A stretch of DNA of 64,000 nucleotides, from assembly GCF_057098645.1 (NCBI RefSeq), contig NZ_CM169472.1; one strand, written 5' to 3'. Made by a program: the position numbers. Position 1 is the stretch's first letter, and the number at the start of each line of letters is the position of its first letter. Shown one piece after another: positions 52,701 to 58,700 of this stretch.

Positions 52701-55700
52701 TGAACGCCCTGACGCACTCCAGCGTAATATCCCTGAGTATCAAGGTATATTGCGCCAATGGTCATTTCTTTATCCGCAGCTCTGGCAAATAGTGCGCTAC
52801 CTAATAGCGTAGCCATTAATAATAGATTACGGGTTGTTCTCATTTTTTTAGGCATAGTGCCTCCTGTAGGTTTTTTATTTACAACGGCTTATTTTAATTA
52901 TTTGAGCGTGAGCGGCAGCGCGTGCCGCTCAAATATTACAGTTAATAGGGTTTAGTGAACGTAGTTAAAAATAAAAGGCATCACAGTGGTGAATAATGCC
53001 GCTTTCGGCCAGGCCGGATTAATCGCCGTCAATTCAGCGCGAGCAGACTCATATTGCGCAACCTCCCCGAGTCCCGCGGACGCCAGCATCGCCACCATCA
53101 GGCATTTTTCTTTATGCTGCTGTTGTAAATCGCCATACAGCGACAACAGGTCAGGTTGTGAAACAGCAAAGAAATCTGCCTCAATACTGGTTTTCGCCAT
53201 CTCTTGCGCCCACTGTTTCATTTCACTAAACAGTTGCTGTGCGATTTGTTGTTCGCCCAGCAGTCGCAGCGCCATTCCTTGCCAGAAGAGATAATCAACC
53301 GGCTGATCGTTGTAATAACTGTGAATGTTAATAGTGCGATCGCCGGTCGCCGCCAGACGTAAACAACGCGTCGCTTCAGTTTCATCGCCCTGCGCGTTGG
53401 CGCATATCGCCTGCCAGAACCAGATGTCGTTATCAGTTTGCCCCGGTAAACGGCCTTCGCTTAAATTCTCCGGATAATGCAGCGCGGCATGAAGCAGTTC
53501 GCTGGCCTGCTGCGGCTGTCTGGCATCAAGATGCTGCCAGGCGCGTAATAACTGGTTGAGGATAAACTGACTGGTGACCTTCCCTTCCCCGCCTTCCCAC
53601 GGGTGGAATTTGCGCGTGGCGAGAATGTCCGCCGCTTTGTCTGCCTGCCCCGTGAGATGCCACAAATTGAGCAGTTCTGCGGTCATGTCGTCGCGTTTCA
53701 GCGCAATTTCCAGATTATTTTCCAGACGCGCCAGTCGTTTCTCCGGTGTGGCTCCACTTAACTTATCAAGCAAATCCCGTTCGAAAAGCAGACGTGCATC
53801 CTGCGGCGCAAGCTGATAAGCATTATCAAGATAACGCGCGGCCAGCTCATAATCGTGTTGCTTATTCCACGCATGGATCGCTAACCCGCGCCAGCCGTCG
53901 GCAAACTCCGGCGACATCTCTACGCAACGTTGCCATAAGGCAATGGCTTTGTTGTAGCTACGTTTGTTGTAGTAGAAGCAGGCCAGTAAATGGCGAGCAA
54001 ACCAGCACTCTTCAATACTCTCCAGCGCCGCCACTTCTTCCAGCGTATTCGGGAAACGGACAAACTGCGGGAAGACATCAATGGCTTTTGCGACCAGTTC
54101 GCCACGTTCGGCTTTCGGCAGCAAGCTGGCTTGCAGGTAAAGCGGCAGCGTGCGCTGGCAGTCCAGTGCGTTCAGCATCTCTGCCGCCAGGGTGGGCATT
54201 CCCCAGTTAATCAGTTGCCCGGCGGTCATCAGGGCGTTAACGTCGCGTCCCTGACACAGACCGCGCCACTGCGCGAGAGCTGATTCGCTACGACCATCGA
54301 ACCAGTTCAGCCACCACAGAGTGGCGTTCAGCGGATAATCGCGCAGCAGTTTCTCGCGCTGCAAACGCGCGTTGTCCTGACGACCACTTAACACCAGCAG
54401 CAGATTATGCAGGCAAAGCACTTCCTGATTGGTTGGGCAGGCGCGAAGACTTTGTTGGCAAAAATCCAGCCCCGCGTCGAAGTTACCATTACGCGCCGCC
54501 AGTCGTGCCAGACCATAATAGCCTCCGGCTTTACTGTTGCCGCTCCAGACCGCACGCCAGAAATCCTCTTCGGCTTGTTGATATTGTCCCTGACGTTCGT
54601 AAGCACTGGCGCGAATCAAACTCGCCTGTCCGCACTGCGGATTTTTGTTCAGCCCATGTGCGCGTTTCAGAGCCTGAGTGGCATACGCCACCGCTTGCGG
54701 GAAATCTGCGCGGTTATATTCCAGCATCGCCAGCGCCAGGTTACAGCGGTAATCAAGCGGATCCAGCGCCACGCCGCGCAGGTAGTAATCGAACGGTGAA
54801 CGGCTGGCATGATGATATTGCTCCAGATGCTGACCGATAAACCAGGCTTCATCTGTACTGGTAATGTCTTGTGCTGCCAGTGGCGCTTTGGCGACGTCCG
54901 GCAACGGCAACTCTTGCGGCTGATGTTCCTGATAACTCAGTACAATATTGCCGTCGGCATCGGAGAGCTCAATGGTCAGCCTTTCAGGATTGATACCGTG
55001 CAACACGCCCTGGATGGCGGTCGCAGGCATCAGTGCCACGGCATCATCAAGTAACGCGTTGCATTTGCCGATTTCGCGGATCGCCAGGCGGTATCCGTTC
55101 AACGGAGAGATGGCATACAGCCCCCACTCAATCCCCCGCTCACTACGCTGGAGTTTGATTACCGCATCGCGGGAGGCGTTTTGCACCATGCCCAGAGAAT
55201 GGTAAGGCAGGAAATACTGCTCAAAACGCTTCTCTTCGTAAGCATCAAGCCAGGTAAAATCAGGCTGGTTATCGGCAAAAATACCGGTCATCAGTTCGAT
55301 ATACGGGCCGTTATTATCAGTTAGGCTCTTATCCCACGCCTGGCCAAATTCACTGTGTCCCCAGCTCCACTGCTTTTTACCTAGCGCAATATGGTGGTTG
55401 GCAACGTGTAGCAAACCGCCATCTTCATCGTGACACCACGCGCCAACAAAATCGTACTGCGATTTTTCGGCCATATATGAGGTTGGAACGGGCACATTTT
55501 TATAGCGAGAAATGTCCACTCCAGCGGAGTAGTCCACTTTGTAGTAAGTGCCGGTGGCGATGGGGAAAGCGGAGACGGCCCGTTTGCCGTGATCAAACAC
55601 CGCAGTCACATCCGGCGGGAAAACGCTCTGATGCCCTTCCCCCCCTTTCACTGCCGGGTTGGCCCACCACAAGAAATGACGCGGCGTGGCGTTGCCGTTA

Positions 55701-58700
55701 TAGACGCGGCTGGCGATTTCCAGCGCCGCCCGGTCAGGGCGCAGGGTGAAACCTGTCATCACCTGTAAACCATGCATCGGCTCCGTTTCGCCGACCCACA
55801 CCGTCTGTGCACCGTCTTCATGGGCTTCGAGGGTGAAATCAACGGGCATAAAGGTGGTCGGGCGATGGTGTTGCGGCCAGTTAAACTCAATCCCGCCAGA
55901 GATCCACGGTCCCAGCAGCCCCACCAGCGCAGGTTTAATGACTTCATTGTGATAGACAAAATCGCGCTGTTTCACTTTATCCCATGCGCGATGCACCCGA
56001 CCGCCCAGTTCCGGCAGTATCATCACTTTGATGTAGTCGTTTTCCAGCCACACCGCCTGCCAGGATTTCAGGGTTTTCTGTTCACTCAGCGTATCGGTCA
56101 CGCCGTAGGGATAAACCGCGCCGGACGATCCCTGATAAACGCGATTTTCCAGGAACATGGGATGTATATCCTGCGGCCCGGTTTCATAGGTCGGGATCTC
56201 AACGCGCTCTTGCCACACTTTTACTGGAGTCATGGTGCCCTCAATATTAACAAGACATACTGAATTAAAAGATTTGTGGCAGTGTATTGAACAATCTGGC
56301 AATGTTTTCGCGGAATAATCACGCAATTAACTAAACAAGGTTTAGTGAAGATGAGAGCCTGCATTAACAATCAACAGATTCGCCACCATAACAAATGCGT
56401 GATTCTGGAACTGCTGTACCGGCAAAAGCGCGCCAATAAATCAACGCTGGCCCGGCTGGCGCAAATTTCGATTCCGGCAGTCAGTAATATTTTGCAGGAA
56501 CTGGAAAGCGAAAAACGGGTGGTGAATATCGACGATGAAAGCCAGACGCGCGGGCATAGTAGCGGTACATGGCTGATTGCGCCGGAAGGTGACTGGACGC
56601 TGTGTCTGAACGTGACGCCCACCAGTATTGAGTGTCAGGTTGCTAATGCTTGTTTAAGTCCGAAAGGTGAATTTGAGTATTTACAGATTGATGCACCGAC
56701 GCCGCAGGCGCTGCTGGCCGAAATCGAAAAATGCTGGCATCGCCACCGTAAATTGTGGCCGGACCGCACCATCAATCTGGCGCTGGCAATCCACGGTCAG
56801 GTTGATCCAGTGACAGGAGTGTCGCAAACCATGCCGCAAGCGCCGTGGACAACGCCGGTTGAGGTGAAGTATCTGCTGGAAGAGAAGCTGGGCATTCGGG
56901 TGATGGTCGATAATGACTGCGTGATGCTGGCGCTGGCGGAAAAATGGCAAAATAATTCGCAGGAACGGGATTTCTGCGTGATCAACGTTGATTACGGCAT
57001 TGGCTCGTCGTTCGTGATTAACGAGCAAATTTATCGCGGCAGTTTGTATGGTAGCGGACAGATTGGTCACACCATCGTTAATCCGGATGGCGTCGTCTGC
57101 GACTGTGGACGTTACGGCTGCCTGGAAACCGTCGCCTCGTTAAGTGCTTTAAAAAAACAGGCGCGGGTATGGCTAAAATCACAACCGGTTAATACTCAGC
57201 TTGATCCTGAAAAACTGACAACCGCGCAGTTAATCGCTGCCTGGCAGAGTGGAGAACCGTGGATCACCAGCTGGGTTGACCGCAGTGCCAATGCCATTGG
57301 TTTGAGTCTGTATAACTTCCTCAACATCCTCAATATTAATCAGATTTGGTTGTACGGTCGCAGTTGTGCCTTTGGTGAGAACTGGCTTAATACCATTATT
57401 CGCCAGACGGGATTTAACCCGTTCGACCGCGACGAAGGACCGAGCGTGAAAGCGACGCAAATTGGCTTCGGGCAATTAAGCCGCGCACAACAGGTGCTGG
57501 GAATTGGCTATTTGTATGTTGAGGCGCAGTTACGACAGATTTGATGGCACGATAAGGTAGAAAGGCTTCCCGAAGGAAGCCTTGATGATCATAAACGAAA
57601 AATTGCCTGATGCGCTACGCTTATCAGGCCTACACGGAGATTGCAATATATTGAATTTGCGAGATTTTGTAGGCCTGAGAAGGTGTTCATGCCGCATCCA
57701 ACATGAACAACGGGCACATTGTCAGCAAATCACCGTTTCGCTTATGCGTAAACCGGGTAACGTGCGCAGATGTCGAGAACTTTACCTTTGATGCGCTCGA
57801 TAACGGCTTCATCATTGATGCTGTCCAGCACGTCACACATCCAGCCAGCCAGTTCTTTCGCTTCTGCTTCTTTGAAGCCGCGACGCGTAATTGCCGGAGT
57901 ACCCACGCGAATACCGGAGGTCACAAACGGGCTCTTCGGATCGTTCGGTACGCTGTTTTTGTTGACGGTGATGTTAGCACGGCCCAGAGCGGCGTCTGCT
58001 TCTTTACCGGTCAGGTTTTTATCGACCAGATCAACCAGGAACAGATGGTTATCAGTACCGCCGGAAACCACTTTGTAGCCGCGTTCCAGGAAAACTTCTA
58101 CCATCGCTTTAGCGTTTTTAGCGACCCGCTGCTGGTAAGTTTTGAACTCAGGCTCCATCGCTTCTTTCAGAGCAACCGCTTTACCGGCGATTACGTGCAT
58201 CAACGGACCGCCCTGACCACCAGGGAAAACGGCAGAGTTCAGTTTTTTGTACAGCTCTTCGCTACCACCTTTCGCCAGGATCAGGCCGCCGCGCGGACCC
58301 GCCAGGGTTTTGTGAGTGGTGGTAGTAACAACGTGAGCATGAGGAACCGGGTTCGGGTAGACGCCAGCAGCAACCAGGCCCGCAACGTGCGCCATATCAA
58401 CGAACAGGTAAGCGCCGATGCTGTCAGCGATTTCACGCATTTTCGCCCAGTCCACCACGCCGGAATATGCAGAGAAGCCACCGATAATCATTTTCGGTTT
58501 GTGTTCTTTGGCTTGTTTTTCCAGATCGGCGTAGTCGATATGACCGGTAGCATCAATACCGTAAGGAACGATGTTGTACAGTTTACCGGAGAAGTTAACC
58601 GGAGAACCGTGAGTCAGGTGACCGCCATGCGCCAGGTTCATACCCAGAACGGTATCACCTGGTTCCAGCAGCGCGGTGTACACCGCAAAGTTAGCCTGGG

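What the first reader, a model, noticed from the sequence alone, without database searches (positions are those of the whole stretch)
52952..56233. YphG: 1,093-aa protein with enzyme-like N-terminus and long TPR-like C-terminus
The size and apparent two-part architecture are unusual for a cytoplasmic component of a sugar locus. By eye the C-terminal half is rich in repeated helical motifs; the N-terminal ~450 aa has no motif I can assign. The strong SD gaggg and divergent ROK regulator suggest regulated expression.
Basis: inference. Interest (0 to 1): 0.45.

Follow-up and report, generated by a model that had tools for sequence, protein, structure and literature searches.

The report
YphG: mutarotase-fold sugar protein with TPR cap
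This is the E. coli core gene yphG, an uncharacterised 1,093-residue cytoplasmic protein made of a sugar-binding, enzyme-like domain and a long helical-repeat tail. Across several bacterial phyla it travels with sugar transporters and galactose-releasing enzymes, so it is a good but unproven candidate for a new sugar-processing enzyme.

Summary
A 1,093-codon gene lies on the minus strand at 52952-56233, with ATG at 56233 and GAGGG 4 nt upstream. It is E. coli yphG, present in 5,420 of 5,426 complete genomes and annotated only as "DUF5107 domain-containing protein".

The family is large (3,896 clusters) and nearly always full length. In 80 loci from four lineages it sits beside:
- an XylE-like sugar porter (51 loci)
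- an AraC or ROK regulator (60 loci)
- galactosidase-type GHs (44 loci)
- a stand-alone mutarotase-like protein (27 loci)

Distant members with signal peptides lie in polysaccharide utilisation loci.

No function is published in the library I searched. My best guess, at about 0.4, is a cofactor-independent carbohydrate-active enzyme working at the anomeric centre of a small galacto-type substrate. I favour hydrolysis; ring-opening isomerisation is the main rival. Interest is moderate.

The parts
52952..56233 (-). yphG coding sequence (1,093 aa plus stop)
   Evidence: ORF and translation. RefSeq annotates it as yphG, 'DUF5107 domain-containing protein'.
55199..56233 (-). aa 1-345: galactose-mutarotase-like beta-sandwich. 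The Pfam DUF5107 match is aa 39-324 (nt 55262-56119). It holds most of the conserved columns, including E116, N118, H122, H123, R124, W190, N192, D208, H215, E313, N322 and D325.
54884..55198 (-). aa 346-450: second, poorly conserved beta-sandwich and linker
   Evidence: AF2 strands at 357-435. Only about 4 conserved columns in aa 351-450.
52955..54856 (-). aa 460-1093: TPR-type alpha-solenoid of about 35 helices. Invariant residues are W563, R782 and E880.
53582..53608 (-). aa 876-884: the FHPWEGGEG loop, a conserved non-helical insert in the solenoid that contains invariant E880
   Evidence: Consensus FHPWEGGEG in alignment A1. Non-helical in the AF2 model. Position confirmed.
56238..56242 (-). 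Shine-Dalgarno-like GAGGG, 4 nt upstream of the ATG
   Evidence: Read directly from the sequence.
56327..56349 (.). 23-bp palindrome TTAACTAAAC-AAG-GTTTAGTGAA in the yphG-yphH divergent region; candidate YphH operator
   Evidence: Inverted repeat. Related sites lie upstream of yphG in Enterobacter, Budvicia, Cedecea, Aeromonas and Photobacterium loci. That it is an operator is inference.
56345..57544 (+). yphH, divergent ROK-family regulator (RefSeq start at 56351)
   Evidence: Pfam ROK, with NagC/Mlc-like NCBIfam hits below cut-off. RefSeq annotation. Described as an uncharacterised third ROK repressor in PMC4288165.
51872..52855 (-). yphF, periplasmic binding protein of a CUT2 (monosaccharide-type) ABC importer
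   Evidence: Peripla_BP_4. Allose, galactose, ribose and YtfQ-like hits.
49315..51849 (-). yphE (ATPase, 50338-51849) and yphD (permease, 49315-50313) of the same importer
48188..49282 (-). yphC, Zn-dependent alcohol/polyol dehydrogenase family
   Evidence: ADH_N and ADH_zinc_N. Best PDB relatives are xylitol and threonine dehydrogenases.
47304..48176 (-). yphB, stand-alone aldose 1-epimerase family protein (PDB 3nre)
52899..52935 (.). nested GC-rich hairpin in the 96-nt yphG-yphF spacer
   Evidence: Inverted repeats. Its role is unknown.

Best explanation
YphG is most likely the catalytic component of an old and widely shared sugar-utilisation module: regulator, sugar importer, YphG and a stand-alone mutarotase.

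Shown:
- Its first 345 residues form an aldose-1-epimerase-type beta-sandwich.
- The pocket-forming residues are highly conserved, with 53-57% identity between E. coli and Bacteroidota or Firmicutes.
- A second sandwich and a 17-hairpin TPR solenoid follow. The solenoid carries a few invariant polar residues (W563, R782, E880 in the FHPWEGGEG loop).
- AlphaFold predicts all of this as one rigid body.

Inferred:
- The pocket binds the pyranose ring of a galacto-configured, monosaccharide-sized substrate. In E. coli this arrives through YphDEF; in most relatives it arrives through an XylE-like H+ symporter.
- The pocket does cofactor-free acid/base chemistry at the anomeric carbon. It would use Glu313 (in a mutarotase-like '..IE..(N)QPD' strand) and His123, helped by the family-specific residues E116, H122, R124, N192 and H215.
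- The chemistry I favour is hydrolysis of a small galactoside or substituted galactose. The TPR cap would close the aglycone side. The released aldose would be anomerised by YphB, and YphC would oxidise or reduce a product.
- YphH represses the divergent promoters through the 23-bp palindrome until the sugar appears.
For: Fold:

Conservation:
- 106 of the 165 columns conserved at 80% or more lie in aa 1-350, and many are His, Glu, Asp, Asn or Trp.
- E. coli keeps 154 of the 165.
- E116, H123, W190, N192, H215 and E313 persist even in 5cd6 at 24% identity.

Context in 80 loci:
- a sugar transporter in 67 loci; the XylE-like porter in 51, directly adjacent in 36
- AraC or ROK in 60 loci
- galactosidase-type GHs in 44 loci: GH36, GH97, GH35 and GH2 related to PDB 8U01, which belongs to the beta-galactosidase subfamily GH2_20 according to PMC12243196
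- a stand-alone mutarotase-like partner from three different families in 27 loci (YphB type 13, GalM type 8, DUF4432-like 6)

No cofactor domain:
- Distant members with signal peptides keep the same invariant residues. They sit among GH16, sulfatases and SusC/D, or next to esterases, or next to a GH42-like gene.
- DUF5107 is an indicator family of phagotrophic stramenopiles, listed beside digestive enzymes.

One rigid unit: pTM 0.92.
Against: - No activity has been measured for any member. I found no paper on function.
- The linked transporters are monosaccharide types (XylE-like porter, CUT2 ABC). That fits a free sugar better than a glycoside.
- The neighbouring GH2 enzymes carry signal peptides and presumably already release monosaccharides outside the cytoplasm.
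- Identity of 53-57% across phyla is more typical of small-molecule enzymes such as sugar isomerases than of glycosidases.
- No sequence-level link to any CAZy or Pfam GH family, or to Aldose_epim.
- I could not see the model coordinates. The proposed contribution of the TPR loops to the pocket and the residue equivalences with GalM are therefore unverified.
Confidence: 0.4

Rival explanations
1. YphG is a cofactor-independent isomerase or epimerase acting on the free imported monosaccharide. The mutarotase-derived pocket opens the ring, and added His residues move a proton at C2. This would be an aldose-ketose or 2-epimerase reaction that yields a common sugar for housekeeping pathways. It would be the first cytoplasmic step of a monosaccharide operon.
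For: - The operon logic (regulator, monosaccharide porter or CUT2 ABC, mutarotase, YphG) mirrors the xyl, ara, fuc and rha operons, where a mutarotase accompanies the isomerase (established knowledge; context).
- The free sugar in the cytoplasm is the common denominator of the Bacteroidota, Firmicutes and Enterobacterales contexts.
- The pocket is very highly conserved across phyla.
- A mutarotase-like Glu and His appear to be retained, alongside extra invariant His residues.
Against: - No kinase or aldolase for an unusual product is conserved nearby.
- The distant clade with signal peptides sits among GHs, sulfatases and esterases in PULs. DUF5107 is enriched in phagotrophic protists. Neither is expected for a monosaccharide isomerase.
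- I know of no precedent for this chemistry in the mutarotase fold.
Confidence: 0.27
2. YphG is a non-catalytic sugar sensor or scaffold. The mutarotase-like domain only binds the sugar. The TPR solenoid recruits a partner, such as the regulator, the transporter or other enzymes.
For: - TPR solenoids usually mediate protein-protein contacts. The closest structural matches for the C-terminal part are scaffolds such as OGT-TPR, Ctr9, Ski3 and APC/C subunits.
- The gene nearly always sits next to, and divergent from, a regulator.
- Mutarotase-like domains often serve as non-catalytic modules in carbohydrate enzymes.
Against: - The adjacent regulators have their own ligand-binding domains (AraC_binding/cupin, ROK).
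- A conserved partner would have to exist in both cytoplasm and periplasm and across phyla.
- Conservation is concentrated on polar His, Glu, Asp and Asn residues in the N-domain rather than on the TPR groove.
- The 5cd6-type relatives carry only a short TPR.
Confidence: 0.1
3. YphG is simply a large, specialised aldose mutarotase, or a ring-form (pyranose/furanose) isomerase, for the imported sugar.
For: - The closest structural relatives are bona fide mutarotases.
- Candidate equivalents of the GalM His and Glu exist.
- The chemistry needs no cofactor and would work in either compartment.
Against: - It is paired with a separate canonical mutarotase-like gene in 27 of 80 loci, which would be redundant.
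- There is no Aldose_epim HMM signal even at E<=10.
- By motif and spacing, the position of the second catalytic His (H175 in E. coli GalM, from my own knowledge) appears to hold the invariant Asn192. This mapping is low confidence.
- About 750 extra conserved residues would be left unexplained.
Confidence: 0.08
4. In E. coli the gene is a decaying or silent remnant without a current function.
For: - No sigma-70-like promoter was found by a simple scan.
- Some genomes carry truncated versions.
- O145 strains have lost yphA-D.
Against: - The gene is intact in 5,420 of 5,426 genomes.
- It keeps 154 of 165 family-conserved columns.
- The full yph locus is present in 5,376 of 5,426 genomes.
- YphF protein has been detected and was induced in a proteomics study.
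Confidence: 0.03

Closest known systems
BDI_1685 of Parabacteroides distasonis (PDB 5cd6, structural-genomics 'TPR-domain containing protein'); Pfam DUF5107 (PF17128)
   Different: It has 580 aa and only a short TPR segment. It lacks the region that holds R782 and E880. H122, R124 and D325 are not conserved. No function or publication is attached.
Aldose 1-epimerases / galactose mutarotase (GalM; PF01263), including the neighbouring YphB (PDB 3nre)
   Different: There is no detectable sequence homology. The position of the second catalytic His appears to be Asn192. YphG has many extra invariant residues. It is three times larger, with an added sandwich and TPR solenoid. It co-occurs with, rather than replaces, canonical mutarotases.
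Beta-sandwich carbohydrate-active enzymes with a mutarotase-like domain (GH174 endo-1,3-fucanases 8jd7 and 9k1g; PL26, PL40, PL4 lyases; N- or C-domains of GH2, GH36, GH38, GH65, GH94)
   Different: Structural similarity is lower than to true mutarotases. In most of these enzymes the domain is accessory. None combines it with a TPR solenoid. There is no sequence relationship.
TPR-plus-enzyme proteins such as O-GlcNAc transferase and SPINDLY
   Different: In those proteins the TPR is N-terminal and binds protein substrates, and the catalytic domain is a GT-B glycosyltransferase. Nothing suggests a protein substrate for YphG.

Membership tests
Pfam DUF5107 (PF17128) | HMM match above the gathering threshold | tested here: met
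   183.8 bits against a cut-off of 24.4, aa 39-324. The same holds in 9 relatives.
Pfam DUF5107 (PF17128) | Typical full-length architecture: DUF5107, then a second sandwich, then a long TPR, about 1,050-1,150 aa | tested here: met
   Most of the 150 best cluster representatives are 1,050-1,150 aa. TPR Pfam hits occur in relatives. Supported by the AF2 model.
Aldose 1-epimerase / galactose mutarotase (PF01263) | Galactose-mutarotase beta-sandwich fold | tested here: met
Aldose 1-epimerase / galactose mutarotase (PF01263) | Sequence-family membership (HMM or profile match) | tested here: not met
   No Aldose_epim hit at E<=10 in 10 family members. hhalign probability was 2% or less against YphB-type and GalM-type alignments.
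Aldose 1-epimerase / galactose mutarotase (PF01263) | Catalytic His/His/Glu set (E. coli GalM H104, H175, E309; from my own knowledge of the literature) | tested here: inconclusive
   E313 and H123 are plausible equivalents by motif and by a weak local alignment. By spacing (69 residues against 65-72), the second His position seems to be the invariant N192, and H215 is an alternative. No structural superposition was possible.
Aldose 1-epimerase / galactose mutarotase (PF01263) | Mutarotase activity | not testable with these tools
   Needs a polarimetric or NMR assay.
TPR repeat proteins | TPR HMM matches above cut-off and an alpha-solenoid structure | tested here: met
Glycoside hydrolases (any CAZy family) | Sequence similarity to a classified GH family | tested here: not met
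   No GH Pfam or NCBIfam hit. The only solved structure matched by sequence is 5cd6.
Glycoside hydrolases (any CAZy family) | A pair of catalytic carboxylates at the anomeric centre, and hydrolytic activity | not testable with these tools
   Candidates (E116, D208, E313, D325, E880) are conserved, but their geometry and activity could not be examined.
yph sugar-utilisation operon of E. coli | Same-strand adjacency to yphFEDCB, divergent yphH, and conservation of the locus | tested here: met
   Gene order. Locus present in 5,376 of 5,426 genomes. yphB and yphH co-occur with yphG in 13-14 enterobacterial, Aeromonas and Photobacterium loci. yphCDEF are present only in the 5 closest.

The most novel reading that the evidence does not exclude
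DUF5107-TPR proteins are a previously unrecognised catalytic family. They would be either a new glycoside hydrolase family or the first cofactor-free sugar isomerase or epimerase built on a remodelled mutarotase pocket and capped by a TPR solenoid. On this reading the family supplies a missing step in galactoside or galactose-related sugar use, shared by E. coli, Bacteroidota, Firmicutes and marine flavobacteria. YphG would be its experimentally most tractable member.
Probability: 0.5. Interest if true: 0.7.

Novelty: new variant of a known kind. Interest (0 to 1): 0.48.

Why it matters
yphG is a core gene of the best-studied bacterium and still has no function. Its family has thousands of members, many of them in gut and marine polysaccharide-degrading bacteria.

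This analysis turns a bare "DUF + TPR" label into a testable proposal. It names a mutarotase-derived sugar pocket, specific residues to mutate, and a short list of galacto-type substrates. It also names partner genes (porter or ABC importer, stand-alone mutarotase, GH2_20, GH36, GH97, GH35) and a candidate operator for YphH.

If an activity is found, it would define a new enzyme family. That would improve the annotation of many polysaccharide utilisation loci and take several genes (yphB-H) off the E. coli list of unknowns.

Tried and rejected
- **Link to Aldose_epim at sequence or profile level.** hmmscan at E<=10 on 10 members and hhalign against YphB, GalM-type and DUF4432-like alignments in global and local modes gave nothing significant. 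Only a weak local alignment came out, which I used as a lead.
- **Literature.** I searched yphG, DUF5107, PF17128/IPR033396/BDI_1685, 5CD6, b-numbers, the yphB/C/D/F/H names, and DUF4432/mutarotase-like/TPR/PUL. No functional study turned up. The b-number and 5CD6 searches returned only noise. YphF induction in a levoglucosan study looks like general catabolite derepression.
- **AFDB fold search.** The library was unavailable.
- **Substrate clues from YphF and YphC relatives in the PDB.** Only generic monosaccharide-binding proteins and polyol or threonine dehydrogenases were found.
- **Domain fusions as a functional hint.** Only one fusion was seen, with an Exo_endo_phos domain, and it is uninformative.
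- **Promoter and terminator consensus scan.** No sigma-70-like site, and terminator-like sites were not clearly above chance.
- **The 1,124-aa TTG-initiated ORF.** Rejected because homologue N-termini align with the ATG.
- **Lactonase acting after YphC.** Considered and rejected because YphC is absent from the widespread minimal module.
- **Furanose-to-pyranose isomerase.** Considered and down-weighted because the neighbouring GHs are pyranosidase families.

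
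Full report
**1. What is there**

Listing ORFs shows a minus-strand reading frame from 56326 to 52952 (TTG start, 1,124 aa). It contains an ATG at 56233 that gives 1,093 aa. GAGGG lies at 56242-56238, four bases before the ATG.

Homologues from other genera begin at the position of the ATG with a conserved M..VKVW.E...IPTY start. RefSeq annotates 3,282 nt.

The region 52000-57600 is 95-100% identical in 5,425 of 5,426 complete E. coli genomes, always on the chromosome. It is annotated yphG, "DUF5107 domain-containing protein", with yphH (ROK) divergent and yphF downstream. The rest of the locus (yphA to yphF) is present in 5,376 of 5,426 genomes. The window carries the standard E. coli yph locus:
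- yphH (+)
- yphG-yphF-yphE-yphD-yphC-yphB (-)
- yphA (+)

**2. Domain and fold assignment**

Pfam places DUF5107 at aa 39-324 (E 5e-54). Several TPR models score above their cut-offs within aa 483-826. NCBIfam gives only sub-threshold TPR-type hits.

By sequence the only solved relative is 5cd6, a structural-genomics "TPR-domain containing protein" from Parabacteroides distasonis.

An AlphaFold2 model from a 58-sequence alignment is very confident (pLDDT 94.4, pTM 0.92). It has strands only in aa 5-435 and about 35 helices in aa 460-1092. A separate model of aa 1-480 agrees.

With the full-length model, only 5cd6 aligns beyond the N-domain (544 residues). The C-terminal part matches only generic TPR solenoids such as consensus TPR, OGT, Ctr9, Ski3 and APC/C subunits.

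The "helical motifs" are a true TPR solenoid.

**3. Is it a mutarotase?**

At the sequence level it is not. No Aldose_epim signal appears at E<=10 in ten family members, and profile-profile comparisons are insignificant.

By motif there is partial resemblance:
- The strand "PYIELMTG..DNQPD" (E313) resembles "FCLEPMSHAPDD" of YphB and "MCLECQYYPDSP" of a GalM-type neighbour.
- A weak local alignment puts H123 on the "NHGG" His.
- By spacing, the second catalytic His of mutarotases seems to correspond to the invariant Asn192. H215 is an alternative.

Without coordinates I could not superpose the structures, so this test is inconclusive.

Conservation argues for a working pocket. Of the 165 columns conserved at 80% or more, 106 lie in aa 1-350. 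Many of these are His, Glu, Asp, Asn or Trp: E116, N118, H122, H123, R124, W190, N192, D208, H215, E313, N322, D325. E. coli deviates at only 11 of the 165. E116, H123, W190, N192, H215 and E313 persist even in 5cd6 at 24% identity.

The TPR part is sparsely conserved. It does hold invariant W563, R782 and E880, the last in a non-helical FHPWEGGEG loop.

**4. Family size and context**

An exhaustive HMMER search with aa 1-480 finds 3,896 clusters at 50% identity with E<=1e-3. Most of the best 150 are 1,050-1,150 aa, so the full architecture is the rule.

A scan of one genome per species returned more than 596 loci. The best 80 span Enterobacterales, Aeromonas, Photobacterium, many Bacteroidota, Paenibacillus, Ruminiclostridium, Cohnella and a planctomycete. 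Identity over the N-terminal 480 aa is 53-57% even across phyla.

I called ORFs in these loci, clustered them and annotated cluster representatives.

| Neighbour | Loci (of 80) |
|---|---|
| Any sugar transporter | 67 |
| One orthologous XylE-like "sugar porter" MFS | 51 (directly adjacent in 36) |
| AraC regulator, usually divergent | 46 |
| ROK regulator | 14 |
| Galactosidase-type GHs | 44 |
| Stand-alone mutarotase-like protein | 27 |

Notes on these neighbours:
- The XylE-like porter scores E 3e-84 to XylE but falls below the XylE equivalog cut-off.
- The galactosidase-type GHs are GH36, GH97, GH35 and a 930-aa GH2. That GH2 is E 1e-180 to PDB 8U01, the sole structure of subfamily GH2_20, which PMC12243196 describes as beta-galactosidases acting on decorated substrates.
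- The mutarotase-like partners come from three different families: YphB type in 13 loci, GalM type in 8 and DUF4432-like in 6. The DUF4432-like assignment is weak.
- GH95, GH31, sulfatases, GDSL esterases and SusC/D also recur.

The minimal enterobacterial operon is ROK <> yphG-MFS-yphB. The ABC importer yphDEF and the dehydrogenase yphC occur only in the five loci closest to E. coli.

In Firmicutes the module sits beside CUT1 ABC importers and GH36. In Citrobacter and Photobacterium a MelB-like symporter and GH36 or GH2 are adjacent.

All 80 YphG homologues lack signal peptides, whereas the neighbouring GH2 enzymes have them. More distant members (27-31% identity) do carry signal peptides while keeping the same invariant residues. 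They sit in polysaccharide utilisation loci: between GH16, sulfatases and SusC/D; next to SASA and AXE esterases; or next to a GH42-like gene. DUF5107 is also listed as an indicator family of phagotrophic stramenopiles, next to digestive enzymes.

**5. What it most likely does**

No paper in the library I searched assigns a function. YphH is described only as an uncharacterised third ROK repressor.

These observations point to a cofactor-independent carbohydrate-active enzyme:
- a highly conserved polar pocket in a mutarotase fold
- no cofactor domain
- operation in both cytoplasm and periplasm
- constant company of sugar importers and galactose-releasing enzymes
- a separate mutarotase nearby

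Such an enzyme would work at the anomeric centre of a small galacto-configured substrate.

Two chemistries compete. I favour hydrolysis of a small galactoside or substituted galactose. That would explain the PUL-resident secreted clade, the lack of any dedicated downstream pathway, and the mutarotase partner that would process the released anomer.

The main rival is a ring-opening isomerase or epimerase acting on the free sugar. It is favoured by the monosaccharide-type transporters, by operon logic resembling the xyl, ara and fuc operons, and by the unusually high cross-phylum conservation.

Less likely are a non-catalytic sensor or scaffold, a plain mutarotase, and a silent remnant. My rough weights are 0.40, 0.27, 0.10, 0.08 and 0.03.

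- **Shown:** the fold, the conservation, the architecture and the gene context.
- **Inferred:** substrate class, chemistry, the role of the TPR cap and the roles of YphB and YphC.

**6. Comparison with what is known, and novelty**

YphG is a clear member of DUF5107. It shares the fold of aldose 1-epimerases but fails their sequence-membership test, and the catalytic-residue test is unresolved. It is therefore best described as a remodelled mutarotase-fold domain fused to a TPR solenoid.

No characterised protein has this architecture. The gene and its domains are already in the databases, so the observation itself is not new. What is open is the function.

I rate it a new variant of a known kind and of moderate interest. 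It is not very surprising to a specialist, but it is a well-defined and tractable lead into a large uncharacterised family, in the easiest organism to test.

**7. Regulation (side result)**

The 117-nt divergent region holds a 23-bp palindrome (56327-56349) abutting the yphH start. Related TCACTAAAC-n3-GTTwAsT sites lie 24-117 nt upstream of yphG in six other genera. This is a candidate YphH operator. The length fits what I recall of the 23-bp NagC and Mlc operators (my own knowledge). No sigma-70 consensus promoter was found, which would fit a promoter that needs activation.

Noticed in passing
window 56327-56349: A 23-bp palindrome, TTAACTAAAC-AAG-GTTTAGTGAA, lies between yphG and yphH and abuts the yphH start codon. 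Similar TCACTAAAC-n3-GTT(T/A)A(C/G)T sites lie upstream of yphG in Enterobacter, Budvicia, Cedecea, Aeromonas and Photobacterium loci. It is a candidate operator of the uncharacterised ROK repressor YphH.
   Followed up: partly
window 52899-52935: A nested GC-rich hairpin (TATTTGAGCG / TGAGCGGCA ... TGCCGCTCA / CGCTCAAATA) sits in the 96-nt spacer between the yphG stop and the yphF start. No T-run follows it on the coding strand. It may be an RNA-stability or attenuation element within the operon.
   Followed up: no
L001 (E. coli O145 RM9872) 6926-8850, against window 44713-51849: O145:H28 strains are 100% identical to the window over yphF'-yphG-yphH. They carry a deletion that joins a truncated hcaB to yphE, losing hcaD, yphA, yphB, yphC and yphD. 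The window has the complete locus and is 100% identical there to strain UTME-3.
   Followed up: partly
window 56234-56326: The mechanical ORF extends 31 codons upstream to a TTG, giving 1,124 aa. This extension overlaps the divergent regulatory region and is not conserved outside Escherichia, so it is probably not translated.
   Followed up: yes
proteins P0002, P0028, P0038 (E. coli): A few E. coli assemblies encode truncated YphG proteins of 955, 741 and 643 aa. These may be pseudogenes or assembly artefacts.
   Followed up: no
L082 10001-13303; L083 135-3527; L085 3988-7329: A distant DUF5107-TPR clade (27-31% identity) carries signal peptides and lies inside polysaccharide utilisation loci. 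Neighbours include GH16 with sulfatases and SusC/D, SASA and AXE-type esterases, or a GH42-like gene. The family evidently works outside the cytoplasm too.
   Followed up: partly
protein P0238 (1,399 aa): One homologue has an extra C-terminal Exo_endo_phos (endonuclease/exonuclease/phosphatase) domain after the TPR region. It was the only domain fusion seen.
   Followed up: no
L015 4933-8513 (Citrobacter); L017 15149-19602 (Photobacterium): In these genomes a MelB-like GPH symporter with a GH36 alpha-galactosidase or a GH2 sits directly beside the ROK-yphG pair. This extends the galactoside link into Proteobacteria.
   Followed up: partly
window 52955-56233 (protein): YphG is 3.2% tryptophan (35 Trp), and several of them are invariant (W110, W190, W291, W300, W563). 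Aromatic-rich pockets of this kind are typical of sugar-binding sites.
   Followed up: no
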